Assembly (NCBI GenBank): GCA_000002445.1
Contig: CP000066.1
Location: forward strand, 1,216,001-1,280,000
Direction: 5' to 3'
Source: Trypanosoma brucei
Taxonomy: Eukaryota
DNA: 64,000 nt
A program made the translations under genes and the position numbers. Shown here piece after piece: positions 1-55,142 of the stretch. The notes under the pieces were generated by a model. It had not been told where the DNA came from and did not search any database. It saw nothing but the letters and a program-made list of their open reading frames with translations. The number at the start of each line of letters is the position of its first letter. Position 1 is the stretch's first letter.

Positions 1-1122
1 CAGTTTCTTGTGCTGCGAGGCAACCTCCAGGAATTGAGAGTACTCCACACGTCGCTTCTCCTCGCGGTCAATCTCCTCAATCCGCCGCTTGACCTCATCG
101 AATCGCTCCGTGCCAAGCTTCTGCAACTGCCGCTCAAGGTCCTGGATCTTGTTCCACGTCTCCTCCTGCCTATCCTCGTTCTCTCGGATGTAGCGGTCGC
201 TTTTCTCTTTGTTCGCAGCGTGGCGCTTCGTCGCCTCGGCATCCTCAAGGTCAGCCTTCTGGATCGCGTCGTGGATGTGCTTCAGATCTGTCTCACACCG
301 CTGCTTCAGGCGACGCTTCGCATCCTTCATCTGACTCGTTTCCTGATTCGCCTGTTTCTGCACCTCATGGATTTTGCTGAAGGCCTGGTTCTCCTCCTCA
401 CATTTGCTGATCAAGCGGAATTTGTCCTGAATCAGATCGATTAAGCGCTCCTGAAGCTGTACCTTCGTCCACATTTGCTCCTCGGCGACCTGCATCTCAC
501 CATCATGCATCGCAACGTTCTGGATCTCGTTCGTTTTTTCAAGCTGCGCCAACTGCGTCTTGATCTGGTCGTCAGTTGAGGCAAGCGCATTCTGGATTTG
601 CGTTACGTTCATGATATCCTCCACTTGCTTCAATGTCTGTGTGGGGACCTGCGCCAACTGCGTTGCATCCAGCTGCGAGCGGCGAAGCTCCTCCTCAACC
701 TTTTCAACCTTCGCGATGGCGTTGTCGATCATCTGCGTGAAGCTCACAACACGCGTCTTGTTGCGGTTCTGACGCAGGTCCTGAAGCACCTTTTTCATGG
801 CAATAATGTCCATGAATTGTGCCTTGTCCTCAGGGCGGTAAAGCTCGCGTTGGCTCATCTCGAGTCCACACACGCGCATCAGCTTTGCGAGGTCGTATAC
901 CTCCGTTAGGTTCCATTTCGTACCGACGTCCACAGCGGCAACCAGCTCCTCAGCCTTCAGGTGGGCGCCGCGCAGCTTCTGCCTCTGTGTCTCGCTCCAG
1001 TCAGATACATGCAATTCCTGTACAAGTTCCTCATTCTCCAAACAGGCTGTCTTCAGCTTCAGGTTGTGGATCTTCTGCTTGCGCGCAGCCTCCAAACCAG
1101 TGGCATCGTCAACTGCGGCCAT
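1..1122 (-). CDS. PFR1: Paraflagellar rod protein, partial tandem copy (N-terminal ~374 codons; 3' end of CDS lies beyond window start)
   Basis: Nucleotides 1-1122 match 2164-3285 (offset 2163 bp) except for one synonymous difference (898 t vs 3061 c). The start codon complement is at 1120-1122 (ggcCAT), as in the full copy. The translation matches the N-terminus of the 589-aa PFR ORF. Confidence 0.85.
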   Translation of the reverse strand, partial: MAAVDDATGLEAARKQKIHNLKLKTACLENEELVQELHVSDWSETQRQKLRGAHLKAEELVAAVDVGTKWNLTEVYDLAKLMRVCGLEMSQRELYRPEDKAQFMDIIAMKKVLQDLRQNRNKTRVVSFTQMIDNAIAKVEKVEEELRRSQLDATQLAQVPTQTLKQVEDIMNVTQIQNALASTDDQIKTQLAQLEKTNEIQNVAMHDGEMQVAEEQMWTKVQLQERLIDLIQDKFRLISKCEEENQAFSKIHEVQKQANQETSQMKDAKRRLKQRCETDLKHIHDAIQKADLEDAEATKRHAANKEKSDRYIRENEDRQEETWNKIQDLERQLQKLGTERFDEVKRRIEEIDREEKRRVEYSQFLEVASQHKKL

Positions 1123-1515: not shown

Positions 1516-3285
1516 CTATTCGAGGCGTGCCGGTGCAGTGTTGTTTCCGATGCGGACCTGCTCGCCACCGGCACCAGAGCTGCGCAGTAAGCGCGCCCTC
1601 TTGATTTCCTCGCGTTCGGCGGCAATCTTCACCTCCTCCTGCTTCGTCAGGTGCGAGCGGTACTCCACCATCTTGCTGCGGCGTGTAAGCACCTCCTCGT
1701 TGTTCTCGTCCACAGGGTGGTTGAACTCGATGCCAGCAGCGTCCAGAGCCTCCTCTGACTCCTTGAACTCCTCCAACGCCTTCGCCTGCTTCTCTTTCAG
1801 CATCGCCAGCTCCTCCTCTACGCCCTGGCGCAGCCTGTATAGCTCTTTCTTCATGTCGGCGTGCTTCTTCGCATTCGGGTCGAATGTTTCCACACAGAAC
1901 TCCAACTGGATGTGCGTTGTACGGATGTTCCGGTCAATCTCCTCCATCCGCTTCTCTTTCTTGTAGATAAGAGAACCCAACGTGAGGTACAGCATGCGGA
2001 AGTACTCCAAGTGCTCTTTATGAACATCCAAACGAAGGGCTGCAAGATCCTGGCTCGTTTTGTCGTGGCGGGCCTTCACCGCGGCACAGCCCTCCGACAC
2101 CAGCTCCTCCACCAGCCCGGTACAGCGGATCGCGAGGTCGCAGTTGTACACTGTCAGCTCGAGCAGTTTCTTGTGCTGCGAGGCAACCTCCAGGAATTGA
2201 GAGTACTCCACACGTCGCTTCTCCTCGCGGTCAATCTCCTCAATCCGCCGCTTGACCTCATCGAATCGCTCCGTGCCAAGCTTCTGCAACTGCCGCTCAA
2301 GGTCCTGGATCTTGTTCCACGTCTCCTCCTGCCTATCCTCGTTCTCTCGGATGTAGCGGTCGCTTTTCTCTTTGTTCGCAGCGTGGCGCTTCGTCGCCTC
2401 GGCATCCTCAAGGTCAGCCTTCTGGATCGCGTCGTGGATGTGCTTCAGATCTGTCTCACACCGCTGCTTCAGGCGACGCTTCGCATCCTTCATCTGACTC
2501 GTTTCCTGATTCGCCTGTTTCTGCACCTCATGGATTTTGCTGAAGGCCTGGTTCTCCTCCTCACATTTGCTGATCAAGCGGAATTTGTCCTGAATCAGAT
2601 CGATTAAGCGCTCCTGAAGCTGTACCTTCGTCCACATTTGCTCCTCGGCGACCTGCATCTCACCATCATGCATCGCAACGTTCTGGATCTCGTTCGTTTT
2701 TTCAAGCTGCGCCAACTGCGTCTTGATCTGGTCGTCAGTTGAGGCAAGCGCATTCTGGATTTGCGTTACGTTCATGATATCCTCCACTTGCTTCAATGTC
2801 TGTGTGGGGACCTGCGCCAACTGCGTTGCATCCAGCTGCGAGCGGCGAAGCTCCTCCTCAACCTTTTCAACCTTCGCGATGGCGTTGTCGATCATCTGCG
2901 TGAAGCTCACAACACGCGTCTTGTTGCGGTTCTGACGCAGGTCCTGAAGCACCTTTTTCATGGCAATAATGTCCATGAATTGTGCCTTGTCCTCAGGGCG
3001 GTAAAGCTCGCGTTGGCTCATCTCGAGTCCACACACGCGCATCAGCTTTGCGAGGTCGTACACCTCCGTTAGGTTCCATTTCGTACCGACGTCCACAGCG
3101 GCAACCAGCTCCTCAGCCTTCAGGTGGGCGCCGCGCAGCTTCTGCCTCTGTGTCTCGCTCCAGTCAGATACATGCAATTCCTGTACAAGTTCCTCATTCT
3201 CCAAACAGGCTGTCTTCAGCTTCAGGTTGTGGATCTTCTGCTTGCGCGCAGCCTCCAAACCAGTGGCATCGTCAACTGCGGCCAT
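1516..3285 (-). CDS. PFR1: Paraflagellar rod protein (69-73 kDa major PFR component); PFR1/PFR-C-like, 589 aa
   Basis: Full 589-aa ORF (MAAVDDATGLEAARKQKIHNLKLK...). It is highly charged with long coiled-coil heptads, and I recognise it as the major kinetoplastid PFR protein family. It sits in a tandem array, as is typical for PFR genes. PFR1 versus PFR2 assignment is by recollection of neighbouring genes and is uncertain. Confidence 0.9.
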   Translation of the reverse strand: MAAVDDATGLEAARKQKIHNLKLKTACLENEELVQELHVSDWSETQRQKLRGAHLKAEELVAAVDVGTKWNLTEVYDLAKLMRVCGLEMSQRELYRPEDKAQFMDIIAMKKVLQDLRQNRNKTRVVSFTQMIDNAIAKVEKVEEELRRSQLDATQLAQVPTQTLKQVEDIMNVTQIQNALASTDDQIKTQLAQLEKTNEIQNVAMHDGEMQVAEEQMWTKVQLQERLIDLIQDKFRLISKCEEENQAFSKIHEVQKQANQETSQMKDAKRRLKQRCETDLKHIHDAIQKADLEDAEATKRHAANKEKSDRYIRENEDRQEETWNKIQDLERQLQKLGTERFDEVKRRIEEIDREEKRRVEYSQFLEVASQHKKLLELTVYNCDLAIRCTGLVEELVSEGCAAVKARHDKTSQDLAALRLDVHKEHLEYFRMLYLTLGSLIYKKEKRMEEIDRNIRTTHIQLEFCVETFDPNAKKHADMKKELYRLRQGVEEELAMLKEKQAKALEEFKESEEALDAAGIEFNHPVDENNEEVLTRRSKMVEYRSHLTKQEEVKIAAEREEIKRARLLRSSGAGGEQVRIGNNTAPARLE

Positions 3286-8041: not shown

Positions 8042-9736
8042 CTACGCACTCCCAAGAAAAATTAATGCGTCATGGTCGTAGCTAGAGTTTACCATCGAGT
8101 TCGGCTCTACCCTGCCTCCAGAGTCAACAAAAACGGCGCCAGTATCACCAGAAAAAAAGTTTGCATTACAGGAGGATTCGACCGAAGCTAGCCTACTTGA
8201 TGGGAGGCAATAGTCTCCCAGGAAGAAATCAAATAGACGATGCCAAATTGGACGCGAGTGCCGGTAAGAGGTGCGTCGTTTACCCGAGCATAGTGAGTCT
8301 TTGTTAGTAATGCGGGTCGCACCTTCCTGGAACAATTCCGCGTATAGCCGACCCCGCAAGACAGTCTCCACCACTAGTTGCTCGATGTGGAACTGCAGTT
8401 TTTTACACGTACGAGCAGCAGCAGGTACGAACATGTGTGACCGAAGCAAATTCGTGAACTGCTTTACGACGCTGGAGCGGGACACGTCCCCTATTTTATG
8501 ATATGCGTGGGGTTTATCTGTGTCTGAACCCCGCCCACAAGCACCATAGTTGTGGATGGAAACGATACGCCCCGAATCATCTACATTTACGCAAACCACG
8601 TCCGAATGTGGAACACCAGCGTTCGTCTGACGTGTCATTTCGATAAGCGTCCCGAGACGGACAGGCGTATTAAAGCTGAGTATTCTACTTTCGCATGGTA
8701 GTCTGTACTTCTCCGAGAAAACTGAAACGGACCTGAGTGATCTCGGCAGTATTTGCGATAAGGAAATCGCCAAGCCGGCACAGTGGATATTGTCCGCACC
8801 ATACACAACAATTTGTTTGCCCCGCAGGAGAGCGGATAAAAGCAACTCCGTTTCGTCAAGACCGGTATCACTCCACTCTAGAAACACCAGCAACCAAACC
8901 GAAAGAGGCTTTAGCAAATGAAAGGGGCCTAAAGACACAACCCTACTGTCGCCCAATGATACGCATCTGCCGATTTCAGGTGGCCAACCGACATCAACAT
9001 CAATAGTTTCCACCAACGGAAGCTTCATCTCGAGATATTGTTTCACTGTGTTCAAAACCGCAGTTTCGCAGGTCGGTTCTTCAGGTATCAATGGCGTCCT
9101 TCCAAACAATGCCAAAAGAACACATTCGAAAAAGTTGTGGGTGCGCCTAAACGCATCAGCTTCTGCTTCGTCGTCTTCCGCCAACAACGACATCAGTGGG
9201 CGCATTGGACGTTTGCGTGCCTCCTCACGCCGTCTCTCGAGGTCGGGAAACGTAGAGTATTCGGACGCCAACCGCCTTTCTGTCACATCAACCCAGCCCT
9301 CTAGCAAAATCCTCATAAAGCAAGAAAGAACAGGCCATCGGCGTATGAGCTCATCACTTCGAGGATGTGTAATTATCACACAAAAACGGCGACTTTCGCC
9401 CCGGGCAAGTATGTCTCCCAGACAAAAAGCTATACCGGACACACCACCTGCATCAGGGTCCGACATCACGACAGATTCTTCATTTGACTCATTCGAATCG
9501 AGAACACGGGCAACAAGTTCTCTCATTTTCTGCTTAGAATGAGGGCGCAGCGATCCGCTAATTGAATGAGCACTGAAAAGCGCTTTTCCATGAAACGCAG
9601 AAAGTTGTGGCATCTGTGCACCAAACGAATTCATTTCTTGATATTCATAATACTCTGTAACATGAAGATCCTTTGGACCCTCAATGGCATCAAATTCCCC
9701 CAATATTACCGCGGGAACATTCCATACCGTCTGCAT
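8042..9736 (-). CDS. Conserved hypothetical protein; possible longin (uDENN)-DENN-type protein of the folliculin/NPRL2/SMCR8 class
   Basis: 564-aa ORF. The N-terminal AVILGEFDAIEGPKDLHVT resembles the longin-domain start of FLCN/NPRL2 (hydrophobic-x-x-F-x-E-x-x-GP). The C-terminal ELLLSALLRGKQIVVYGADNIHCAGLAISLSQILPRSL resembles a DENN core. This is by eye only. Confidence 0.3.
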   Translation of the reverse strand: MQTVWNVPAVILGEFDAIEGPKDLHVTEYYEYQEMNSFGAQMPQLSAFHGKALFSAHSISGSLRPHSKQKMRELVARVLDSNESNEESVVMSDPDAGGVSGIAFCLGDILARGESRRFCVIITHPRSDELIRRWPVLSCFMRILLEGWVDVTERRLASEYSTFPDLERRREEARKRPMRPLMSLLAEDDEAEADAFRRTHNFFECVLLALFGRTPLIPEEPTCETAVLNTVKQYLEMKLPLVETIDVDVGWPPEIGRCVSLGDSRVVSLGPFHLLKPLSVWLLVFLEWSDTGLDETELLLSALLRGKQIVVYGADNIHCAGLAISLSQILPRSLRSVSVFSEKYRLPCESRILSFNTPVRLGTLIEMTRQTNAGVPHSDVVCVNVDDSGRIVSIHNYGACGRGSDTDKPHAYHKIGDVSRSSVVKQFTNLLRSHMFVPAAARTCKKLQFHIEQLVVETVLRGRLYAELFQEGATRITNKDSLCSGKRRTSYRHSRPIWHRLFDFFLGDYCLPSSRLASVESSCNANFFSGDTGAVFVDSGGRVEPNSMVNSSYDHDALIFLGSA

Positions 9737-11813: not shown

Positions 11814-13331
11814 CTAATATGCTCTGCCTCGGTCAAGATTTGGAGGCGACCACTCATTAACGATAAGTTCGGGGAAAACATTAGGTTTCAAAGTTGAAGT
11901 ACCAAGAAGCATATTGACACACTCTTGGAACCCTTGGGTTATTGCAGGGTAAGCTGTATGGAGCTGACTCAGGTTATAAATCGATTCGCGATTATGAATT
12001 GCCAATGAAGCCAACTCAATAATGCTGCTTGCATGCGGTCCAACAGCTCGCACACCAAGAACCTGCATTTTGTGATCATTTGTAACGATAAGCTTCACAA
12101 AACCGCTCGTATTGCCCATTGCGAGGGCCCGACCCACAAATTCATAACCGTACCTGGCCACCTTGTATGCTATGTGTTCCTTCCTGCATTGTTGCTCATT
12201 GCGACCTACAGCGGCCACCTCCTGATCAAGAAACATAATCGTCGACAGATTGTCCAGGCGTTGAATAAGTTCTCCCTCCGGATATGGACGATACATATGC
12301 TCAATACAGGAACGCGCTTCCAACTCCCCAACGTTAACAAGCGCCACCCTTGAGCCGACATCACCACACGCATAAATATGCTTGTGTGGAACAACGCAAT
12401 AAAACTGGTCACGCTGGATTCGACCCTGCTTCAACTCAACACCGATTTTGTCGAGTCCAATGCTACCCACATTTGGATCCCTTCCTATTGAAACCAACGC
12501 CTTGTCGACCACGTGGTCTGTTAGCCTGTTGTCTCTCAAATCACGCAGCGTGTAACGGAATTGGCCGCCCTCCACCTTGTTGCTTTGCAAAGCAGAATGG
12601 TGGTGAAAATTGACCATCTTTGCCTCCAGGAGCTTCTGAACGAAGAGAGCAACATCATCATCTTCCATTGGCAATATTCGATTAGACTTTTCAATAACAT
12701 TTACTTCGGTAAGTCCAAAGTTCGCAAATATCGATGCAAACTCACATCCTATAACGCCAGCGCCGATAATGACAATGCTTTTCGGAAATGGTTGAGTCAT
12801 TATATCATCGGAAGTGAAGACAACCTCACCGTCGGCAATTACGGAAGCATGTTTACGAGGTTGAGCGCCGCACGCAATGACAAAGTAGTCGGCCCGTACC
12901 TCCTCAATGCCTCCACCCAACAGTTTAACATCGACACTGTGAGGTGACGTAAATGACCCATGACCACATATAACGTCAACGCTAACCTTCTCAAGCTGAT
13001 GAAGAATCTGGCCGTGACGGAACTCTGCTGCGCAATCTATTGATTTCTTAATATTCGAAAAATCAATACATGGGAGAGCTTGACGGCACTTCATAAAACG
13101 ATTGGCGGTTTGGCCGTTCATAAGGCGGACGAATTTTGCCATTTCCCATAACGTCTTCGACTGTAGCGCACCGTTCCAAAGGTCAGCACCTCCAATCCGT
13201 GATGACTCGATTATGCAAGCCCTTTTTCTATAATCCACAGCCCGCAACGCGGCGGCCACTCCTGCAGGTCCTCCCCCTATGACACAAACATCCACATTTT
13301 TCGCCCAGCTGAGCCGGGTTTTAGCAAACAT
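11814..13331 (-). CDS. Dihydrolipoamide dehydrogenase-like FAD/NAD(P)-binding oxidoreductase lacking the redox-active CxxxxC disulfide
   Basis: It has an FAD-binding GxGxxG (DVCVIGGGPAGVAAAL), a second dinucleotide fold (IVIIGAGVIGCEFAS) and a C-terminal dimerisation domain. A LipDH-like H...P...E block (LHTAYPAITQGFQE) is present. Where LipDH has GGTCLNVGCIPSK, this protein has GGADLWNGALQSK, so both active-site cysteines are missing. Confidence 0.75.
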   Translation of the reverse strand: MFAKTRLSWAKNVDVCVIGGGPAGVAAALRAVDYRKRACIIESSRIGGADLWNGALQSKTLWEMAKFVRLMNGQTANRFMKCRQALPCIDFSNIKKSIDCAAEFRHGQILHQLEKVSVDVICGHGSFTSPHSVDVKLLGGGIEEVRADYFVIACGAQPRKHASVIADGEVVFTSDDIMTQPFPKSIVIIGAGVIGCEFASIFANFGLTEVNVIEKSNRILPMEDDDVALFVQKLLEAKMVNFHHHSALQSNKVEGGQFRYTLRDLRDNRLTDHVVDKALVSIGRDPNVGSIGLDKIGVELKQGRIQRDQFYCVVPHKHIYACGDVGSRVALVNVGELEARSCIEHMYRPYPEGELIQRLDNLSTIMFLDQEVAAVGRNEQQCRKEHIAYKVARYGYEFVGRALAMGNTSGFVKLIVTNDHKMQVLGVRAVGPHASSIIELASLAIHNRESIYNLSQLHTAYPAITQGFQECVNMLLGTSTLKPNVFPELIVNEWSPPNLDRGRAY

Positions 13332-14712
13332 TAAAATTATTCGGTAAACCTGATACGATAGCAGGGAAATAATTAGCGGAAGTAAGAGTTTTTCTCAGGC
13401 AGAAGCGACAGAAAGTTAAAATACGCAGCTGAGGGTTATCGTAGAGAGTCAGATGAGCACATATATTTATCTTATGGGAAGTCAAATGGCACACACTGAA
13501 GGAAAGCAGCAACACAAACACCCTATTATACCACTTCCTTCCTCTCAGCGGTGCTTCTAAAACCATTCCCCTTCACTCCCTCCTCCTAGAGCGGACGCGA
13601 CCAGGTGCAAGAGAACGAGAAGGAAAGGCGCAGCGGGCAGATCTGGCCATCCGGACGAGAACACACTAAGCATCCTGACTGAAAACGGCGGTGCTAAGCG
13701 ACAGTGAAGGTGAAAAAAAGAACCACAACAGCAGTGTTACAGCAGACAGCGACACGCATGCAAATTTCGCTTTGCAAGTCAAAGGTAATGGGGAGCGAGG
13801 GGAGTTGGCAAGCGTCCACCGGTAGTGTGGAGCGCGAGGCCCGCGCAGTTCGCCCCACCCTCCATTAACCAGGCCAAACGAGCCAAACAAATCGAAAGGG
13901 GGAAAAGCACGACCACTCCTGAGAGCGACAATATTGCACCCAACCCTTCACACACATCCGTACGGAACCGGAGGCTGCATGAAATTCCGCCTACGGTCAG
14001 CCCAGCATCGGGAATATGGCTCAGCACCGCGCACCCAGCGGTCCCGCCCAGCCCCGCAATAATTCTAAGCAGCGGTCACCGCCCCGACGCCCCCATCACA
14101 TACTTCACCGTCCGAAAGCAAGGAAGCGGCCAGACGTACGTTCAGGCGGACGGGCGGCAACATAGCGCACAAAACCCGGGAGGGTAGTTCAACCGAAGGA
14201 AGCAGCTTCCTCCTCCCCCACCGGAGTCGACGTCAGCATCAAACGAGGAGGAAAACAAAGGAAGACCGGCACCATGCGGCCCCTCGAAAAGAGATATGTG
14301 CGGCGGGTGGTCAAAGCACCCGCGCAAGGAACATAATACTGCAAAGGGCTTTTAGCCCTTTAACGGGCGAGCACAGCCGGTCGGGTATATGACGACGGGC
14401 AAGGGGGCGGCGGATCTGTCCCTAAGAAACGCCGAAGCCATCTTTCACACTCCAGTGCCGCAACAACGCGGTTCCCCCGGGAGTGGGTGGGGCCCGTTTC
14501 TCAGCATGATTTTCCCTCGCCCGAACCCCACTTCGGCTCACTGACGAAAGCCTTTCCGCGCACAGACACCAACAAGAAGCACGACGCGGCAGAAAATCGT
14601 CACAGACGACCACGTAACGGTCTAGCGAACCACTTACACAGTTCCCTTCTTCGAGGGGTAATCCCTTCAGAGAGCCCCTCCTCAGCGGATATCACATAAC
14701 CAAGAGCCAGTT

Positions 14713-14858
14713 CAGTGTCTCACGCCCTTGTTTCCTGGGGGGAAAAAAGCATTGGGAGGGGGCGCGCTACTCGACTTCCCCGGCGCTGGTGGTGGTGACA
14801 AAGCGGTGCCCCCTCCCAATGCTTTTTTCCCCCCAGGAAACAAGGGCGTGAGACACTG
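14713..14858. repeat. Perfect 51-bp inverted repeat (arms 14713-14763 and 14808-14858) with 44-bp spacer
   Basis: The reverse complement of 14713-14763 (cagtgtctcacgcccttgtttcctggggggaaaaaagcattgggagggggc) is identical to 14808-14858. It lies in the ORF-free tract. Confidence 0.9.
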
Positions 14859-17296
14859 AGGTGAAGGAGAACCTTCTGGATGCCCCTCCGAAGTGACCTG
14901 CTAACGACCCCACCGAATAACCGCCTACAGACCCCACTAATAAGCAACTGCCGCACCTTTTCGTTTGGTAACTGTTGATGCGGAGAGTGCGTTTCAACCC
15001 CAACTCCATTTGGCCTGAGGAAGCGGAAAGCATCATTTTGAAGAGGAGAGAAATGTTGACAAGCGCTGTCGTTCTAAGAGGGCAGGCCTAAATACAGTCA
15101 CTATCGAAGGGAGGGGTCACCTGCATAGAGGGCAAAAAACAAATTTGTTCAAGGAAAACCAACCAATCCGAACGATTTTTGATTCTCAAGGGTAAAAAAT
15201 CATCGATACAGCATCACGGATGATATCTAAATTCTTCCTTCGCGCCGTAAAGGGAACCCATTTGGCATCTCTACTGACATTTTCACTGTGTATTCAAGTC
15301 ATCCGTTATTTGTTTATTTATTTTAGAAACGATACACACTTACAAGCGGAGCGCGGCGTCACGTTTTCACCTTAACTCAGCAAGTGCAGGCCCTCTACAA
15401 CCGGAGGTTTGGAAGGGGGCGTTTCGTTTCGTTTGTGCACACCATCCTGCAGGAAAGCATGCCCCTCCACCCTTTCGTACAAAGGTCCGCGCACCACATA
15501 CAGCAAAACCAAGGGTCGAGCCCCCTCCTCTCCCCAACACACACGTAACATTTCAACATGTCGCTGGAAAATGATGCCCAAGGGCAATATATTGGAGGAG
15601 ATCCATTCCTACCAGTTGGATCACCCGAACCCTAACAAAAGCCGGCCACCTTTCTGGGGAATCAGCCCTTGAGTCACCCTCGGCGGCGGATGCAGGTTCC
15701 CTCGAACGTCAGGGAGGAAATCTGCAAAAAAAAAATGTAGTTTTACTCCACAGATCTCTGAAGGTTGATCAAACACACCGCTGTTGAGTTTTCTTTCTGT
15801 TATACAAATGCCCATCGTTGGTGCCATAACTTTCGCCTCCCCAAAATGGAGTGCGCTCTGATGCCACAGGCGTTCTGAGTTCCGCATCCCTAGCAACGGC
15901 TCCCAACCTATTTTCCGCGTGAGGATGGGCACAATTTCAAGGTCACGCAGAGCATACGCCCATAGTGCCTCTTTATTCTGTTTTCAAGAACACTGCGTTC
16001 GCTGGGGGCTATTACCCACATTAGCTCACCCAGTGGTCTTTGTTCTTCGTCCTTCACTTGAAAAATATCACTCTGGGAGCGCCTTTCCATTTGAGGCGTG
16101 TAGTTGTGTTAATGACCGGTTTATCCGGGACTGTGAAAGAACAGGCTTTGCGATCATGATGAGGGAGGCTAAGATTGGTGTTGATGGGCGGAAAATTCCC
16201 TCGCGATGCCGGCCACCTCATCATGGGTCTAGGGTCCAGTACACCATCTCATCGGGTTAAGCCAAGAGCCAGCAGCGTTCTTCTCCAGGGTAACACTGCT
16301 CTGCCCGGCTGCGGCATCATACAGCACAGGGATCAGCAGCGTCTTGCTGGGACACCGCTTTTCATTTGTCGGTCCCTGGGTGTGTGCCAGTGTGCCATCA
16401 GCGGCAGAACGGATGGTGTTTTCCTTGAAAAAGCTGTGCGTCTATTTTTCCGCAACCGTTTCAGCACTGCGATGGAAAGAATATTGAAAAAAAGTGTTTA
16501 ACAACAAGCTTAAGAGGAAAACTCAGTGATGAACAGTGTTGGCGATGGTGGAATTGTCTGTGCTCGTTGATTGTTGTGTGCATTGTGCGAGTGATAAAAG
16601 CGTGTTTTATCTACATGTTTCTTCCGTGCGTTCGTTTCCTTCAATATTATGCACTCTAGCCTTTAGGCGAAAGCCTAAGCATCCGCGCAGTTTCCGCACA
16701 TACCGCAATTTACACTCGTTATTTTTGGTTGTGTACTCGTTGCCGACGGCTGGAAACTCTGAGTGTGAAGAAATCGGGAATCTCTGTGGGGCCCGTGCTC
16801 TTGGACGTAATCTCACCGTTTGTGAAAAGAGCGCCTTCATTGCGGAGATCGGGTGGCCTAGTGGAATGAAAATGGTCAACACGTACCACTTCCCCCACAC
16901 AGGGACAAAAACGTGGTAGTTCCAGAGAGCGATCTGGGCAACAAATATAACCTTGCACAAGGAAGCTCTTTTTCACGGCATGCGCAACTTTTTTCTTTGT
17001 TTGAAGGATGCGGGTGCAAAGTTCGAACAGGTACGTCAAAGGCTTATGCGGGATGTCACTCTGTCCTTCGAAGGACCTTTCTCGTTCCGATACCAGTGCG
17101 CCAAAAACGAAACTTACGCGGAAACGCCTCCACGCGCAAACCTCTTCTCGCGGCGCCAGCTGTTGGGGAGACGGCAACGTCAACTAAGTAAAGGCCTCAA
17201 ACCCGACGGCAGCGGAACGAAAACAGGAACCGACGCCACGCATTCGGACGCCAGCCCCGGCGCTGCTGACCCGTCTCTTTTGAAGCAACACAAATC

Positions 17297-17425
17297 AAAA
17301 ATTTAAATAACAAGAACTTTGTCACGAGGTTAATTTTTCTCTCCGGAGCGGTTGTTGATTTAGAGCAGTTGCCTGAAGTCATGGTTAAGGGGTTCGGTTC
17401 CCCGGTCATCTGTCGTTTTTTCCAT
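17297..17425. ncRNA. Candidate small-RNA/tRNA-like element ~100 bp upstream of tRNA-Ser(AGA); strand and identity unresolved
   Basis: On the plus strand, 17389-17421 reads GGGG-TTCGGTT-CCCC-GGTCATCTGTCG-TTTTTT, i.e. a T-arm-like hairpin, an acceptor-like 3' strand and a T6 terminator. I could not fold an anticodon arm, so it is not a canonical tRNA. Read on the minus strand, the same interval starts ~100 bp divergent from the tRNA 5' end, the spacing kinetoplastids use for tRNA-dependent pol III small-RNA genes. It ends at an Sm-site-like AAAUUUUUG (plus-strand A-run 17297-17301). Confidence 0.25.
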
Positions 17426-17523
17426 AAAGCGCTTTTCTCAGAGCCTTCGGCCGGCGTCGTGTAGCATACATAAATATAAGTACGTCAAATTTTAGTAAAT
17501 TTAGTAAAGAGGTCGGCGCACGT

Positions 17524-17604
17524 GTCACCATACCCAAGTGGTTACGGGGACTGACTAGAAATCAGTTGCGATCTCGCGCGCAGGTTCGAATCCTGCTGGT
17601 GACG
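17524..17604 (+). tRNA. tRNA-Ser (anticodon AGA), type II with long variable arm
   Basis: The cloverleaf was folded by hand. The acceptor is GTCACCA/TGGTGAC plus discriminator G. The anticodon stem is ACTGA/TCAGT with loop CTAGAAA. The variable arm is long. The T-arm is GCAGG-TTCGAAT-CCTGC. A T6 run follows at 17605-17610. Confidence 0.88.
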
Positions 17605-17610
17605 TTTTTT
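17605..17610 (+). terminator. Pol III T-run terminator (TTTTTT) after tRNA-Ser(AGA)
   Basis: A T6 run lies immediately 3' of the tRNA. Confidence 0.7.
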
Positions 17611-17809
17611 CGTCAATTCCCCGTGTTCCGCTGCTTTTGTCCAGTCAACTTTTTTCCGTAACAACAGCGATTGGGAATTGGGAAACGGTACGCGCACCAC
17701 AGGCCAGTTGTGACCACCAAGCAACACAGAGACGCCGCGGAGGACGGACAGCGTTGGGCAACACCGCTCCGAAGGGTGAAAACAATCAGCCGATTTGGGT
17801 GCGAAAAAG

Positions 17810-17891
17810 TGACAAGAGTGGGGTTTGAACCCACGCCTACGAATAGAAGAGAACTTGAGTCTCCCGCCTTAGACCACTCGGCCATCTTGCC
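17810..17891 (-). tRNA. tRNA-Leu (anticodon CAA), type II
   Basis: The minus-strand sequence is GGCAAGATGGCCGAGTGGTCTAAGGCGGGAGACTCAAGTTCTCTTCTATTCGTAGGCGTGGGTTCAAACCCCACTCTTGTCA. The anticodon loop is CTCAAGT, the variable arm is long, and the T-loop is TTCAAAC. It is followed on the minus strand by C+T5 (plus-strand A-run 17804-17808). Confidence 0.88.
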
Positions 17892-17950
17892 ATCGACGGC
17901 CACAACAGATTTGTTTTAGACACTTTTTTTATTTATGCAATGCCAAAAAC

Positions 17951-18031
17951 CGTCACCAGCAGGATTCGAACCTGCGCGCGAGATCGCAACTGATTTCGAG
18001 TCAGTCCCCGTAACCACTTGGGTATGGTGAC
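17951..18031 (-). tRNA. tRNA-Ser (anticodon CGA), type II; identical to the Ser(AGA) gene except position 34
   Basis: The minus-strand sequence equals the 17524-17604 tRNA with a single change in the anticodon loop (CTCGAAA vs CTAGAAA). A T5 run follows on the minus strand (plus-strand A-run 17945-17949). Confidence 0.88.
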
Positions 18032-18112
18032 ACCGCCTCGCCACCACCTCTCAAATGCGTTACCCTTGCACAAGCGATCGATGCCGTGATTTTTTTGTGC
18101 GTTTCTGTGCGA

Positions 18113-18360
18113 TGCGGAGTGTGAAGCGGTTGGTGGTGGTTTGCCGTCCTCCAACGGACGGCCGCCAGTCACTTGTCGTATGAGCCGATAAAGCTGCGCC
18201 GGAGTTTTCCTGGAAGTCCTCTCTGAACAATATAACTGTGGGATGTGGACGCAGAAATTTGTAGGGCTTAAAGTCACGGCGTCAAGTTGCAGTGCCAGTC
18301 GTTGATGGGCGGGCCACCATCGGATAAGAAGGGTGGGGGACACTACGCGCCACAGAACAG
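18113..18360 (+). ncRNA. Candidate structured GC-rich RNA element divergently positioned ~95-100 bp from tRNA-Ser(CGA) 5' end
   Basis: The hairpin GCCGUCC-UCCAAC-GGACGGC lies at 18142-18161. A long-range complement pairs GGUUGGUGGUGG (18129-18140) with CCACCAUCGG (18314-18323). A TTTT run is at 18204-18207. I looked for the SRP-RNA helix-8 AGCAG/GNRA signature and did not find it, so the identity is unknown. Confidence 0.2.
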
Positions 18361-21300
18361 CACTATGAGACTATAAAAATGAGGTAAAGCCGCACATGAG
18401 CTTGTTGTAGTCACTCAGTTATGTGGTGGAGCGTCTCACGAGTCGGCGCGGTGGCCATGGCAAATGGAAAGGACATTGGATCATCACAGTACCATTACAA
18501 GTGCACATCTTTCGGTGCTTTGTTTTGGAGTTAAAGAAGATGGAAGAGTCGGAAAATTTTCTTCAATTTAACACCACTAACTCAGTGCTCTTGAGCTTCA
18601 CTATCAACAGTTTCCGTTTGTGGCTCGTGTGTCCCAAGTGTCCACAAGGTTTGTACGCCTCGGGCCTCTCGGAACAGTAACGTGCCTGCGGATTGTGGAG
18701 AAAAAGTGGATAGTAAAATTAATGAATGTAGGGAGAACACGCCCTATGTACTGATTTTTTGTGAGCTTTTTTCTCGTGTTAGAGACTCACCCGCTCAAGT
18801 TACTGCATTCTTCAGGCTATGGGGAAGGCCATATTCAAGAAAATTGGCTGTGTGAACAGCAGCTGCCTCTGAATAGAGCAGGTGAATCACCGATTGGGCC
18901 TCCATGACTTTCCCACGGTGGGGAACATAAGAATTCCACATATTAATGTCCACGGAGCCGTGCAGATAGGCGTTTTTATGTTCCTAAAAACCTACTAGCG
19001 TCAACCGTGTTGGCACAACAGCGTTGAAGCCGTCTCTAGAGTCTCCGCTGTGGGGAGTAATCGGCGTTTACTTTCCTGTGAGATGCCCGTTCACCTCCAT
19101 TATTTCACGACATCAAAAAAAAAAACGTTCCAAACTTGGTTATGTGGATACTTAATGTTCAAGGGGTCAAGTACACGGGTCGAAAGTTTCATCGTTTCAA
19201 AAAATTTATTACCAGCAATGTTAGGTGTGTATTGAACTGTTTTTTCCGGGAAAAGTTGGTAAATGAATCTGTCATAGGGAAACTTGCCACCTTCACCAGC
19301 CCATTCTGAACAACAGCCCCCAGCATGTAGATTTTGAAATACGCATTGTTTTCCACGGGATTCGCACCGGTTTCTTCTGCGCGCCTTTGTGTTTTCGCTT
19401 ATCGCTCTGAAAGTCACATTTTTTTGTGGAAACATCTGCATGGTTCCCCTCGATTATTTCTTCGGTCCGGGCGCCGCATGTGCGTGAATTTCTGTCGATG
19501 TGTGTCCCAACAGTTGGATTGCCTCTTCAGTCTTTACTGAACCTTGTTGACTTCTACGTGCGCTGCGTGGGTTGCCTGCAGCGTGCTTAGGGTCATTTTA
19601 CCTTGGGATGCTCTCTGTTCCCGTGCCGAAGTGACGGCTGTAGTTGAACCGTTGTAATGAGCTTAAATGATCCTTTGCTGCGTGTCCAAAATGCTCAAGT
19701 ACTATGGACGCCCCACCCCCTGGGATGAAGTTGCCACACCAAGAGCACCGGCCACGATTACTCGTGCGGATGAAGCCGCGGACTTCCCACCGATTTGAAT
19801 GTCACCGTACTTATGGTCGTGTTGGGCGCCGTTGGCGTCTTACAAGCCACCAGCACTTTGACTCATGATGTTCCAGCGTCTTGTGTTTCATTTCCCGGAG
19901 TACTGGTTTTATCTGCTCTACTATACCAAATGTATGCGGTTGCTGCGATCCACGTGAGAAAATACGAACTGCGGTGCGCACTGCGTAAGTCTGTCTAGTC
20001 AAAGCTTTTATTTGGCCCTTTTCGCCGCATTTTCCGCTTGTAAAAAAAGTTGATCTCGGCACACTTTGTTTTACTTTCTCTAAATATTGCTCCAGTCAAT
20101 ATGTTTGGAGTCTTCTGCAGCCTCTTTCCCTATTTTTGGTGCCTTTGAATATTCTCGTCCAGCTAGTTTTTCTCTTTTTTTATTTTCTCTGGCTAGTCTC
20201 GCCTTTTCTCCTTCATAAATTAACTTATATAATTGGCGTTCTGCAGTTGCAAGTTTGTTGGTACTCTCGTTTATTCCGCTGCTTTTCTGGAGTATATCTT
20301 CCCTCCATCCTCATTTTTCCTACGTTCTCGTTTTTGCTGGACCACTGTAGTTGAACGCCGTTGTAATTTTCCTAACATCTGTTGAAACCCATTGAAACTT
20401 CATTGTGATCTCCACTCTCATATAGGTTGTGAAATTTGACAAGTCTTCTAAACATCGACTCACTGCCTTCGTTCGTGTCGGTTTCACGGGTATTGTGTCG
20501 CTTCAGTGGTGCAACCTGGCACTTGTGCGTGCGTGTCTGCTAAAAAATTTGTTTTCTCAACACAGAGAAGTGCTGGCATGGACTAGGTGCGTGGTGAAAC
20601 TACTAACCTACGTTGTTTTATTTTTTTTTGTTAAGTTATAAAAGGAAATCTGGAAAATTTGAAAGGTTATAAGATTCTGGCACAGTTGCCTCCTTTGTGT
20701 CTCCGATGTGCTGGTCAAGTCCTCCATGACTGTGCTCAACTGAATCAAGTATCATCTCTAAGTTTAGAAACGTCGCTACGATTCAAGAAAATGGCTTTCC
20801 CCCAGTTTGATTGCTTTTGCCGCTTCGGAAATGAAGTTGGTGGTGGCCGTCCATGGTCGAAACCTTTACTGGCGTATGCGTTTCTGCCCTTCCAAGCAGT
20901 CAAGTCGCTGAGCTACCACTCACCCCCTATTACGTTGCACACTCCATAGTAATGTCAGGGCCCATATTCCAGATGAGAGGGAAAACCGAGCGTGTTCATC
21001 AATTCTGTTCCTTAGTGATTGGGGCCGGCAGATGATTGTCGGCCTCCGGGGGGAGCAGGCATCAAAGTCATCGGTTCTCGGGGATGAAAAGGAACATCAC
21101 CTTACCCTTCTGCAATCGTGAGGGCACCTTTTCGGTGGTCTGTAGGCCAGCACAGTCATCAAGCACGCTCTACAAAAATAACCCGGACACAATCCCACAT
21201 GGATCGCAATGGGGAGCTAGGGAGCTCCCACAGCCGAAAAGATTCGCTTTGGCAAAGCAACTTCACAGTTACGACGTCAATTTCTGAATTTTGCGAGGAT

Positions 21301-23475
21301 TACGTGTGCCCAAAGAAGCGGAATACAAAAATGAAATATTAACAGAAGACCATAGAAATTGCACGGCCCTGAAAATGAAGACAGAACCAATACTTGAAAC
21401 GGGTAGCGACGGTATGCTTTGGGCCCCGCGATGTACAGGGAGGTATGAAAGAGCATCGGCTAAATCGATGCCGGGCAGGGGCTATAAGTCACATTTCTGC
21501 CAACATATCCCTAAAAAGCGGAAGCGGCCACAAGGCGAGCGCCGGATTCGCTCCGCCCAACAGTTAGCGCATTGATGACCGGTGCCGATATGAACTGGAG
21601 CAGTCGGGAGTTAGCTCCATACACACAGCCAGGCGAAGCAGGCTGCCTCGTCCAGGGGCATTTGGAAGGGAAACTGAGGAGAGCCAACTCTGGGAAGGCC
21701 GCAATAAAGCCTCGAAGGCGTAACTGGTCCTCACAGCTGGGCGTGGCCACATACGGAGGGTGCTGGGTATTAAACTGGAACTCGAAATTGAACTGAATTA
21801 GCGACAGCAATAGAATCATATTCTAAGTAGGGATGTGCATGAATGCTGATAAAGTCATTTTTTTTGTACTTTCACCACACACTACTCGCAGAATAAGAAC
21901 GATTGAATAGCTTGCCAACAAACACAGGTGCACGGGGTAAAGAATGGCTCGAGCGTGACCCAAAGAAAATAGGAATATAAAGGAGGTTACGCTATTGTCT
22001 CCGGTAAGAATGGAAACACAGACGACAACACCAAAAACAGATACACTGGCGCAACACTTCTTGAGCAAAGAGCTGAAAATCTTCTAAATGGAATGACGTT
22101 ATGTGACAATGTAAGCGGAAAAGTAGCGGAGAAACATAAGGTGAAAAGTCTAATCAAAGGAAAGACACAGAGTGATGGAGAGGAAAAACATTTAAGGCAA
22201 GAAACACAGAAACAGCAGCCATCAACTCAACCAATCAGGAATTCCCACCGAGGTTACAAAACACGCAAGAAATAATTGTCACCAGGCCATTGCCGATAAA
22301 GGGACGGCTGCAGCTGTAATATCACCGGGGGCTGAGGAAGTAAGGACATATTATTTCCATGGAACAAGCAAACTAACGCGCAGTTGCTGAGCAAAAGGTG
22401 TGGCAACGGAAGGAGGACCCAGAGCATTTATTGGCATTTGGGGAAACGGTTAAAGAGCGGAAGGACATTGGCGGCACTCGCCAACTTACTGTCCCCACGA
22501 TTAACTCTAAAAATAGGTCCTGCGAAAGTAAAGGAAGGGATGCTATGATGGACGTGGAAACACAGGGCGAAATTAACCAAAGGCGTAGAACCAACCATCA
22601 GGTCAACGTTTTCACACTGTCGGACAAAGAAAAATTATGAAATGGAGCGAAAACCCAACGAGGGCAACCTCACTTCAAAACAGTGCTCGGCGTGGTAGAC
22701 GGGGATTGCCACCGCAGTGGCGGAAAAGTTGAAAAGGAATGGCGAAGGGAAGCGGTACCCAATGTCTATGGCCAAAAAAAATATGAGAGGTCCTTGCCAA
22801 AGCGTGCCTCCCTCCGGGTAGTTCCGGCGAACTCACTGGAAAGCCAACAGCACGGTCGCGAATAGGGGCGCCCCGCACGTAACCGGGGGCTGTGTAGTGG
22901 GACTGAGAATTTTGTGGCAACTCCTCCTCCTCCTCCTACCTTTTACTGAGGTTCAAGTAACTTTTCCCTTTCCCCAGGAAATTGCAGGTCGAATTTTTGG
23001 CATTTCAGATGATGCGAATTATCGCTGTGAGTCGCTTGTGGCATCAGCAGTAAGAGCCTGGAAACGCCTCCGGGTCGCGTTTAAACCGCCCGGCTTCGAA
23101 CTAGCAGTGTGCGACGCACTGGGCCGGTGCCGTTGCGCACACAAAGAGGGCGGCTGCATTGTCAGCGGCTTATTCCAATATTGCGTGAGGGGCATTTCAG
23201 AAACTGCTGAACTTGTGGCGTTTGAGCATTTTTTCATTTAGAAAGGGAGAAAAGATGAGATATCTGCCATGCTACTTTTCGGATGAAGTAAGTTTGAGCG
23301 TTGCCGCAGCCCTGATAATGCGGCGGTGGGAGTGGTAGTGGCTAGATGATTTTAAATGTTACAGTGATTGGGTGGATGCTGTGGGTGAATTTTAAGTAGG
23401 AAAATGCGACCACTCAGAGGCTGCCTCTCCATTTGAGTTGCTGGTGTTTCGCGTTCGCGCAGGATATCCAATGGG

Positions 23476-48452: not shown

Positions 48453-48704
48453 TATATACAGCTTCTATATATCTATATATTCAGTCGCTCTCCTACAATT
48501 CCCTCTTTTGCTTGTTCCTCAACCGCCTAAAAAAAAAACGGATGCGCCTCCTAGTGCGAATACTTTGCACACGCATACAAACACTGTGACAGTACAGATA
48601 CACCTTGGCGGCTGTTTCACCAGTTATGCACAAAACAAGGTGGACAAACCCTTTCTTGCGCCTGACCAGAGGGATTGGACATAGGTAAAAAGATAAGGAA
48701 AAAA

Positions 48705-48705
<1 letters not shown>

Positions 48706-48744
<39 letters not shown>
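48706..48744. repeat. (TA)~19 microsatellite
   Basis: A direct repeat is visible. Confidence 0.95.
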
Positions 48745-48748
<4 letters not shown>

Positions 48749-49163
48749 GTGGACAATGATGACACAAACATATTCGGGTGAAGTGAAGACGTAAGGGAAG
48801 TAATGGGCCAAATGCAACCCATTCCCCTTCCCTTGATGGACAGCTGCTCCTTCTTTCCTCTTTTCCCACTTGTACTTCAGGGTTAAAGCAGAGAGCTGCA
48901 GCATGTGGTCGGTTAAGACGCCCACGCACACATACATAAGTACGTATGAAAGCACAGAAGGAAACCTAGCCCCATGCACAAAGAAAAATAGAACAATACG
49001 GCAGCTGATCGTTAACGACAACAACAACAACCACTCCGTAATTAAATGTGAAGAGAAAATAAATGCCATGAAACAAAAGAAAAAAAAAACTGTGCCACCA
49101 CCCACGCTAACAACGGTGCATGTCTTGCAAAACGAGTAACAATGATCCATCATACGGCATTAC

Positions 49164-55112: not shown

Positions 55113-55118
55113 CTTAAC

Positions 55119-55142
55119 TAATATATATATATATATATATAT
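55119..55142. repeat. (TA)12 microsatellite
   Basis: A direct repeat is visible. Confidence 0.9.

What the first reader, a model, noticed from the sequence alone, without database searches (positions are those of the whole stretch)
14713..14858. Perfect 51-bp inverted repeat with 44-bp spacer in the GC-rich tract
Arms 14713-14763 and 14808-14858 are exact reverse complements (51/51). The spacer is GC-rich (gcgctactcgacttccccggcgctggtggtggtgacaaagcggt). A perfect palindromic arm pair of this length cannot arise by chance in 64 kb. It can extrude as a cruciform or fold as a ~50-bp RNA hairpin if transcribed. Candidate roles are terminator/pausing structure, processing site, a dsRNA/siRNA source, or a recent foldback insertion. 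Its perfection implies recent origin or gene conversion.
Basis: seen in the sequence. Interest (0 to 1): 0.6.

Follow-up and report, generated by a model that had tools for sequence, protein, structure and literature searches.

The report
Flipping, self-correcting palindrome in trypanosome DNA
A real, perfect 52-bp inverted repeat sits in a non-coding transcript at the start of a Trypanosoma brucei gene cluster, and strain comparison shows an unstable palindrome (loop flipped, arms co-mutated, centre deleted) with no sign of a dedicated function.

Summary
The arms are 14712-14763 and 14808-14859, 52/52 complementary, with a 44-nt spacer. The repeat is unique in the window.

The window is T. 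b. brucei TREU927 chromosome 3 (v4 1,216,001-1,280,000). The repeat lies in a 10-kb ORF-free gap holding three tRNA genes. Published data place a Pol II transcription unit starting at Tb927.3.4390 "next to tRNA" in this gap. The repeat is inside the spliced, polyadenylated non-coding transcript Tb3.NT.54, 261 nt from its 5' end.

Three genomes give three alleles:
- TREU927: long form.
- T. equiperdum IVM-t1: long form with the 44-nt spacer inverted, and one substitution present at mirror positions in both arms.
- T. b. gambiense DAL972: a 95-bp central deletion leaving 24-nt arms around a 5-nt loop.

The syntenic T. vivax gap has the tRNAs but no such repeat.

Best reading: a lineage-restricted, recombinationally active DNA palindrome. 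Arm-to-arm recombination keeps the arms identical and flips the loop, and hairpin formation causes centre loss. Function as an siRNA hairpin, promoter element or terminator is unsupported but not excluded. Interest is modest: a new example of a known kind.

The parts
14712..14763 (.). Left arm of the inverted repeat (52 nt).
   Evidence: 100% complementary to 14808-14859.
14764..14807 (.). 44-nt asymmetric spacer (loop). Its orientation relative to the flanks is reversed in T. equiperdum IVM-t1.
   Evidence: (alignment). The window + strand segment 14712-14807 matches the L001 + strand 8479-8573 at 97.9%, although the flanks of L001 are the reverse complement of the window.
14808..14859 (.). 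Right arm of the inverted repeat (52 nt). On either strand the 3' arm reads a polypyrimidine tract followed by AG (…GCTTTTTTCCCCCCAG|GAAAC).
14723..14723 (.). Polymorphic arm position (G in TREU927; A in IVM-t1 and DAL972, + strand). It is the mirror partner of 14848.
14848..14848 (.). Polymorphic arm position (C in TREU927; T in IVM-t1 and DAL972, sense strand of the alignment). It is the mirror partner of 14723, so the change is compensatory and pairing is kept.
14741..14835 (.). About 95 bp (inner arm halves plus spacer) that are missing in T. b. gambiense DAL972. What remains is TCAGTATCTCATGCCCTTGTTTCC-CCGCA-GGAAACAAGGGCATGAGACACTGA. The junction lies in a C/CC microhomology, so it is ambiguous by 1-2 nt.
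13442..15120 (-). Published non-coding, SL-trans-spliced and polyadenylated transcript Tb3.NT.54 (chr3 v4 1,231,120 to 1,229,442; 1678 nt; RPKM 0.25). It contains the whole repeat.
   Evidence: Kolev 2010, PMC2936537, supplementary files 23 and 28. The coordinate offset of +1,216,000 was derived from Tb927.3.4400 and Tb927.3.4350. A polypyrimidine tract and AG end at 15121 on the - strand.
11814..13331 (-). Tb927.3.4390 (dihydrolipoamide dehydrogenase), the first annotated ORF of the Pol II unit that starts 'next to tRNA'. The repeat is 1.4 kb upstream of its ATG.
17523..18032 (.). tRNA cluster Ser(AGA)+, Leu(CAA)-, Ser(CGA)-. It marks the head-to-tail boundary between two - strand Pol II units.
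13332..23475 (.). 10.1-kb gap without credible ORFs, between Tb927.3.4390 and Tb927.3.4400. It holds the end of the upstream unit, the tRNAs and the re-initiation region.

Best explanation
The feature is a lineage-restricted DNA palindrome in Trypanozoon that is structurally unstable and still recombining. It has 52-bp arms and a 44-bp loop. It lies in non-coding DNA at the start of a Pol II polycistronic unit and is carried passively inside the low-abundance non-coding transcript Tb3.NT.54.

Proposed mechanism:
1. The two arms pair and recombine within the same chromosome, by crossover/gene conversion or by a replication template switch.
2. That pairing copies any new mutation from one arm to the other, which keeps the arms perfect. 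Shown by the mirror-position substitution.
3. The same process inverts the loop. Shown as opposite loop orientation in two strains.
4. Hairpin or cruciform formation during replication makes the centre prone to loss through slippage or microhomology-mediated joining. This is inferred from the DAL972 allele: a 95-bp central deletion at a CC microhomology that leaves a 24-bp stem and a 5-nt loop.

No sequence-specific cellular function is needed to explain any of these observations. Any effect on RNA, such as a 52-bp perfect stem that could be cut by the nuclear Dicer DCL2 and so destabilise Tb3.NT.54, would be a by-product. That RNA effect is inferred and was not tested.
For: - Reality and uniqueness of the repeat.
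- Genomic identity: the window's DLD protein is identical to TREU927 Tb927.3.4390. The coordinate offset comes from Kolev 2010 tables.
- Position in a tRNA-marked re-initiation region and inside Tb3.NT.54.
- Three allelic states at the orthologous site.
- Spacer identity: the 44-nt spacer is 44/44 identical on the + strand of both the window and L001, while the flanks are reverse complements. This is an inversion.
- Concerted arm change: the only base substitution separating the TREU927 arms from those of IVM-t1 lies at mirror positions 14723/14848 and preserves pairing. Background divergence is about 1.5% (150 mismatches in 10,014 aligned bases). At that rate the expected number of such mirrored complementary double hits in 52 pairs is about 52 x 0.015^2 / 3 = 0.004 (my calculation).
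- Lineage restriction: the syntenic T. vivax gap has the same three tRNAs but no long inverted repeat and no similarity.
- No coding capacity and no recombinase: no ORF of at least 100 aa in the gap matches Pfam.
- Independent precedent at the same locus: the segment between the two inverted tRNA-Ser genes is flipped between T. brucei and T. vivax.
Against: - Only three Trypanozoon assemblies could be compared.
- The DAL972 deletion could be a cloning artefact. Long palindromes are deleted in E. coli, and DAL972 was assembled from Sanger clone libraries (my knowledge, not tested here).
- The 1-nt homopolymer differences in IVM-t1 may be PacBio errors.
- Whether both loop orientations coexist within one strain was not testable.
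- Lack of function is argued from absence of evidence: no small-RNA, ChIP or nascent-RNA data could be mapped.
- The repeat sits in a transcription start region, where a functional element would be plausible.
- Pairing-preserving change is also what selection on an RNA or DNA stem would produce.
Confidence: 0.6

Rival explanations
1. Functional RNA hairpin. Transcribed within Tb3.NT.54, the 52-bp perfect stem is a Dicer (DCL2/DCL1) substrate. It would yield a few siRNAs that act in cis, or it would serve as a stability or processing element of the first transcript of the unit.
For: - The repeat is inside a mapped Pol II transcript.
- The RNA fold is -140 kcal/mol with z = -13.
- T. brucei makes siRNAs from inverted repeats (Tschudi 2012).
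- Tb3.NT.54 is very low in abundance, RPKM 0.25.
- The arm change preserves pairing.
Against: - The locus is absent from all published lists of siRNA loci, which hold no chr3 IR or miscellaneous locus. The chr3 convergent-unit entries lie outside this window.
- Known siRNA-producing repeats have arms of at least 422 bp.
- Flipping of the loop and deletion of two thirds of the stem in DAL972 are tolerated.
- There is no other target of the arm sequence in the window.
- Rfam hits to miRNA precursors are far below gathering scores.
Confidence: 0.15
2. Functional DNA element of the transcription start region. A cruciform or hairpin-forming site would help open chromatin, position Pol II initiation, act as a boundary after the tRNA genes, or mark a replication origin.
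For: - It is located in the GC-rich region, GT-rich on the sense strand, between the tRNA cluster and the first gene of a Pol II unit listed as starting 'next to tRNA'.
- Strong DNA hairpin potential.
- T. brucei Pol II promoters are heterogeneous and poorly defined.
Against: - The SL acceptor of Tb3.NT.54 is 261 nt upstream of the repeat, so initiation occurs further upstream.
- It is not conserved in the T. vivax syntenic start region.
- It is largely deleted in DAL972 with the surrounding unit intact.
- It is the only such repeat in 64 kb.
Confidence: 0.1
3. Foldback or MITE-like mobile element, or its footprint, inserted in the gap.
For: The overall shape fits: terminal inverted repeats around a short unique core, 148 bp long, restricted to one lineage.
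Against: - No direct repeat (target-site duplication) flanks the arms...GAGCCAGT|TCAGTG...CACTGA|GGTGAAGG.
- No second copy was found in the window or in about 190 kb of fetched trypanosome loci.
- No exact match in prokaryotic, viral or metagenome collections.
- A whole-genome search of T. brucei was not possible.
Confidence: 0.05
4. Assembly or cloning artefact in the reference genome.
For: TREU927 was built from clones propagated in E. coli, and the chromosome 3 annotation even contains a Tn10 transposase (file 18). Palindromes are error-prone in sequencing.
Against: A clone-free PacBio assembly of another isolate (IVM-t1) has the same structure at the same site. DAL972 retains both outer arm segments.
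Confidence: 0.02

Closest known systems
Unstable genomic palindromes such as the human PATRRs (palindromic AT-rich repeats on 11q23/22q11). From my own knowledge.
   Same: - Near-perfect arms.
- Hairpin/cruciform potential.
- Allelic size polymorphism generated by central, often asymmetric, deletions.
- Located in non-coding DNA.
   Different: - This repeat is GC-rich.
- It is much shorter: 148 bp against several hundred.
- It has a 44-bp loop, whereas PATRRs have essentially none.
- No translocation or breakage has been shown here.
T. brucei long inverted repeats IR1-IR7 that produce siRNAs (Tschudi et al. 2012, PMC3447711).
   Same: Same organism. The arms are essentially identical, which those authors also took as a sign of homogenisation or selection. 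Both are transcribed by Pol II.
   Different: - Arms of 422-10,011 bp against 52 bp here.
- None of IR1-IR7 is on chromosome 3.
- This locus is not in their siRNA tables.
Flip-flop inversion between inverted repeats (plastid genome IR isomers, yeast 2-micron circle, herpesvirus segments) and bacterial invertible promoters such as fimS/hin. From my own knowledge.
   Same: A unique segment bounded by inverted repeats is found in both orientations. The arms evolve in concert.
   Different: - No dedicated recombinase is encoded nearby.
- The inversion is seen only between strains, not within a population.
- The segment is 44 bp and carries no recognisable promoter or gene.
Hairpin-RNA (hpRNA) endo-siRNA loci of Drosophila, and pre-miRNAs.
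   Same: A Pol II transcript containing a perfect stem-loop.
   Different: - No small RNAs are documented here.
- The stem is longer and more perfect than a pre-miRNA and shorter than hpRNA stems.
- Rfam scores are 22-33 bits against gathering scores of 60-105.

Membership tests
T. brucei siRNA-producing long inverted repeats (Tschudi 2012) | Arms essentially identical (99-100%). | tested here: met
   52/52 complementary.
T. brucei siRNA-producing long inverted repeats (Tschudi 2012) | Arm length in the range of the described set (422-10,011 bp). | tested here: not met
   52 bp here against Table 3 of the paper.
T. brucei siRNA-producing long inverted repeats (Tschudi 2012) | AGO1-bound, Dicer-dependent 22-25-nt RNAs from the locus. 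| not testable with these tools
   No read data are available. The locus is absent from the paper's IR, CTU and miscellaneous tables. That argues against abundant siRNAs in procyclic YTat1.1, but whether that strain carries the long allele is unknown.
MITE / foldback transposable element | Target-site duplication flanking the terminal inverted repeats. | tested here: not met
   The flanks GAGCCAGT| and |GGTGAAGG share no direct repeat.
MITE / foldback transposable element | Multiple dispersed copies in the genome. | tested here: inconclusive
   No other copy was found in the 64-kb window or in about 190 kb of other trypanosome loci. The whole genome was not searchable.
Site-specific invertible DNA switch | Segment bounded by inverted repeats and found in both orientations. 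| tested here: met
   The spacer is inverted in IVM-t1 relative to TREU927. This is between strains only.
Site-specific invertible DNA switch | Dedicated recombinase encoded at or near the locus, and a functional cargo (promoter or gene) in the invertible segment. | tested here: not met
   No ORF of at least 100 aa in the 10-kb gap matches any Pfam family. The 44-nt spacer has no recognisable signal.
Unstable cruciform-forming palindrome (PATRR-like) | Near-perfect palindrome with strong intrastrand folding. | tested here: met
   DNA hairpin -77.4 kcal/mol, z = -17.
Unstable cruciform-forming palindrome (PATRR-like) | Allelic polymorphism by central deletion. | tested here: met
   DAL972 lacks the central 95 bp and keeps both outer arm segments. 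Caveat: a cloning artefact is possible.
Unstable cruciform-forming palindrome (PATRR-like) | AT-rich composition and little or no spacer. | tested here: not met
   The repeat is GC-rich and has a 44-nt spacer.
microRNA precursor (Rfam families) | Score at or above the family gathering threshold. | tested here: not met
   The best hit is mir-6511 at 32.5 bits against a gathering score of 87. The other hits score 22-29 bits against 60-105.

The most novel reading that the evidence does not exclude
The repeat is a bistable, homology-driven invertible element or hairpin switch inside a Pol II start region. Its loop orientation or hairpin state (long or short allele) would tune processing or stability of the first transcript and hence output of the downstream polycistron. 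Alternatively it is the first short hairpin-siRNA (miRNA-like) locus in T. brucei. Nothing here excludes either reading, because neither within-strain orientation mixtures nor small RNAs could be examined.
Probability: 0.06. Interest if true: 0.7.

Novelty: new member of a known kind. Interest (0 to 1): 0.3.

Why it matters
If the best explanation holds, this is a compact natural example of several processes at one locus in a parasite that lacks classical end-joining and relies on homologous and microhomology-mediated repair. It shows how short palindromes stay perfect through arm-to-arm conversion, how they flip their loops, and how they decay through centre deletion.

It is also a practical caution. 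The locus will mis-assemble or drop out in short-read or clone-based genomes. It could also serve as a strain marker. It does not change how trypanosome transcription is understood unless the small-RNA or promoter readings prove true.

Tried and rejected
1. I suspected the gap was Tschudi's siRNA-rich 'CTU7' (chr3 1,120,900-1,132,400). This was rejected once the window was placed at chr3 1,216,001-1,280,000.
2. Exact-protein look-ups for the window's DLD, folliculin-like, BRCT and Tb927.3.4400 proteins found nothing. TREU927 itself is not indexed. A 10-20-kb contig, probably T. equiperdum OVI, carries Sam50 and RPS15A but was never returned. No fourth allele could therefore be obtained.
3. Rfam at permissive thresholds gave only sub-threshold miRNA-precursor look-alikes, which is a generic hairpin effect.
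4. Exact scans for the inner arm in prokaryotic, viral and metagenome collections found nothing, so there is no sign of foreign or vector origin.
5. Literature searches for palindromes or cruciforms in T. brucei, for Tb3.NT.54, and for promoter motifs (SPARC paper) gave nothing specific to this locus.
6. No extended weaker symmetry surrounds the repeat, and no part of the arm or spacer has a source elsewhere in the window.
7. I ran no further search on the spurious ORFs across the repeat. The T. brucei DLD cluster showed that the database holds only the three NCBI assemblies for this species, so a result would not have been informative.

Full report
**Observation**

The sequence at 14400-15200 and the repeat finder (and again on the whole window) show an inverted repeat.
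- The arms are 14712-14763 and 14808-14859, 52 nt each and 100% complementary.
- Allowing three mismatches, the 52-mer occurs only at these two places in the window. No match occurred in 100 dinucleotide-preserving shuffles.
- Folding gives -140 kcal/mol as RNA on the - strand with short flanks (z = -13.1).
- The 148-nt unit as single-stranded DNA gives -77.4 kcal/mol (z = -17.1).
- The surrounding kilobase is the most GC-rich in the window at 58.6%.

**Where it is**

All ORFs of 180 aa or more in the window are on the - strand. There is a 10.1-kb ORF-free gap at 13332-23475. The gap contains tRNA-Ser(AGA), tRNA-Leu(CAA) and tRNA-Ser(CGA) at 17523-18032.

The ORF at 11814-13331(-) is a dihydrolipoamide dehydrogenase. 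It is identical to T. b. brucei TREU927 XP_844031 (Tb927.3.4390).

Supplementary tables of Kolev et al. 2010 (PMC2936537) give Tb927.3.4400 at chr3 v4 1,240,639-1,239,476 and Tb927.3.4350 at 1,223,262-1,220,869. These are the window ORFs 24639-23476 and 7262-4869. The window is therefore TREU927 chromosome 3, 1,216,001-1,280,000, and the repeat is at 1,230,712-1,230,859.

The same paper's Table S14 lists a Pol II unit Tb927.3.4390 to Tb927.3.4020 on the - strand, starting 'next to tRNA'. It lists the preceding unit as ending at Tb927.3.4400. The gap is therefore a head-to-tail boundary: termination, Pol III genes, then re-initiation.

Kolev's novel transcript Tb3.NT.54 runs from 1,231,120 to 1,229,442 on the - strand. 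It is 1678 nt long with RPKM 0.25 and has a spliced-leader site at 1,231,120. In window coordinates this is 15120 to 13442. The sequence shows ttgttttttgccctctatgcag|g ending exactly there on the - strand, which independently validates the offset.

The repeat is therefore fully inside a trans-spliced, polyadenylated, low-abundance non-coding RNA, 261 nt from its 5' end. It lies 1.4 kb upstream of the first protein-coding gene of the unit.

**Comparison with other genomes**

Three related loci could be fetched.

*T. equiperdum IVM-t1* (PacBio; GCA_003543875.1, L001)
- It is 98.2-98.9% identical to the window over the region.
- It has the repeat at the orthologous site: 51-nt arms, 98% complementary, 44-nt spacer.
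- When the flanks are aligned, the spacers do not align.
- The spacer is 44/44 identical when read on the + strand of both records, although the flanks are reverse complements. The window + strand segment 14712-14807 matches the L001 + strand 8479-8573 at 97.9%.
- The loop is therefore inverted relative to the chromosome between the two strains.

*The arms*
- The only base substitution separating the TREU927 arms from those of IVM-t1 is at window positions 14848 and 14723. These are mirror partners, and pairing is preserved.
- With about 1.5% background divergence, about 0.004 such mirrored complementary double hits are expected by chance (my arithmetic).
- The arms therefore evolve in concert.
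- IVM-t1 also differs by 1-nt homopolymer lengths (G6A5 against G5A6). These may be PacBio errors.

*T. b. gambiense DAL972* (L006)
- It lacks the central 95 bp, approximately window 14741-14835.
- It retains TCAGTATCTCATGCCCTTGTTTCC-CCGCA-GGAAACAAGGGCATGAGACACTGA, which is 24-nt arms with one mismatch around a 5-nt loop.
- The junction lies in a C/CC microhomology.
- Both outer arm segments survive, so this is a deletion from the long form rather than an ancestral state.

*T. vivax* (L009, L010)
- The syntenic locus has the same gene order and the same three tRNAs.
- It has no long inverted repeat in the 7-10 kb upstream of the DLD gene and no similarity to the arm or spacer.

**Interpretation**

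The three alleles are what an active palindrome is expected to produce.
- Intramolecular recombination or template switching between the arms inverts the loop.
- As a by-product it transfers mutations between arms, which explains their perfection without invoking selection.
- Hairpin or cruciform formation promotes deletion of the centre between short direct repeats. Trypanosomes repair breaks by homologous and microhomology-mediated pathways (established knowledge).

The steps that are shown are the inversion, the mirrored substitution and the central deletion. The mechanisms behind them are inferred.

The same gap offers an independent precedent. The two tRNA-Ser genes form an 89-nt, 98% inverted repeat. 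The block [tRNA-Ser + about 60 nt + tRNA-Leu] between them is in the opposite orientation in T. vivax, aligning in reverse at 82% over 245 nt.

**Function**

I found no evidence for a dedicated function.
- The locus is not among the seven siRNA-producing inverted repeats of T. brucei, which have arms of at least 422 bp and none of which is on chr3. It is not among the 'miscellaneous' siRNA loci either. The chr3 convergent-unit entries lie elsewhere.
- Rfam gives only sub-threshold precursor-like hits.
- No ORF of at least 100 aa in the gap matches Pfam, so there is no nearby recombinase or transposase.
- There is no target-site duplication and no second copy in the available sequence.
- There are no matches in prokaryotic, viral or metagenome collections.
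- The repeat lies downstream of the Tb3.NT.54 splice acceptor, so it is not the initiation site itself.
- The DAL972 allele shows that two thirds of it can be lost. The caveat is that this deletion might have arisen during cloning.

A 52-bp perfect RNA stem is nevertheless a plausible Dicer substrate. The 3' arm also reads as a polypyrimidine tract followed by AG on either strand. Minor effects on Tb3.NT.54 processing or stability cannot be excluded.

**Comparison with known systems**

It works like unstable palindromes such as the human PATRRs: polymorphism by central deletion and cruciform potential. It also works like inverted-repeat flip-flop systems in its loop inversion and concerted arms. 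It is not a member of either in the strict sense, being GC-rich, having a 44-bp loop and lacking a recombinase. It resembles the T. brucei long inverted repeats in arm identity but is an order of magnitude shorter and is not a documented siRNA source.

**Verdict**

The functional guesses are unsupported. The finding is a new example of a known kind of genome feature, documented here with three informative alleles. Interest is about 0.3.

Noticed in passing
window 17522-18033; L001 5305-5814; L009 1208-2415: tRNA-Ser(AGA) and tRNA-Ser(CGA) form an 89-nt, 98% inverted repeat with tRNA-Leu(CAA) in the 334-nt spacer. In T. vivax the Leu gene has the opposite orientation and sits next to the other Ser gene. 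The T. brucei [Ser + about 59 nt + Leu] block aligns in reverse to T. vivax at 82% over 245 nt. The segment between the inverted tRNA-Ser genes has therefore been flipped between species.
   Followed up: partly
window 1-300 and 2164-2463 (and ORF 1516-3285 -): A 100% identical direct repeat with 2163-bp spacing. It corresponds to the tandem array of 589-aa paraflagellar-rod (PF05149) genes seen in the related loci. DAL972 shows a 508-aa first copy, which suggests an array difference or assembly difference.
   Followed up: no
window 14808-14840 (+) and 14731-14763 (-): On either strand the 3' arm of the palindrome reads GCCCCCTCCCAATGCTTTTTTCCCCCCAG|GAAAC. This is a polypyrimidine tract followed by AG, the shape of a trypanosome trans-splice acceptor. 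Kolev's table gives a large dispersion value (117) for Tb3.NT.54 splice-site usage. Whether this AG is used is unknown.
   Followed up: no
window 16175-17306 (+): Three short + strand ORFs (108, 127 and 117 aa) are annotated as genes in T. b. gambiense DAL972 (L006 6118-7240, - in that locus). They have no Pfam match and lie in the re-initiation region, so they are probably spurious. If real, they would make the gap a divergent plus convergent strand-switch region.
   Followed up: partly
TREU927 chr3 v4 261,163-262,371 (outside the window): Kolev 2010 Table S4 lists Tb927.3.1050 as 'transposase of Tn10' on the same chromosome. This is a reminder that the reference contains E. coli cloning artefacts.
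   Followed up: no
window 48685-48750, 55110-55150, 55689-55746, 56900-57640: Long (TA)n tracts and poly-purine/poly-pyrimidine tracts lie in intergenic regions. They account for nearly all other 'repeats' reported in the window.
   Followed up: no
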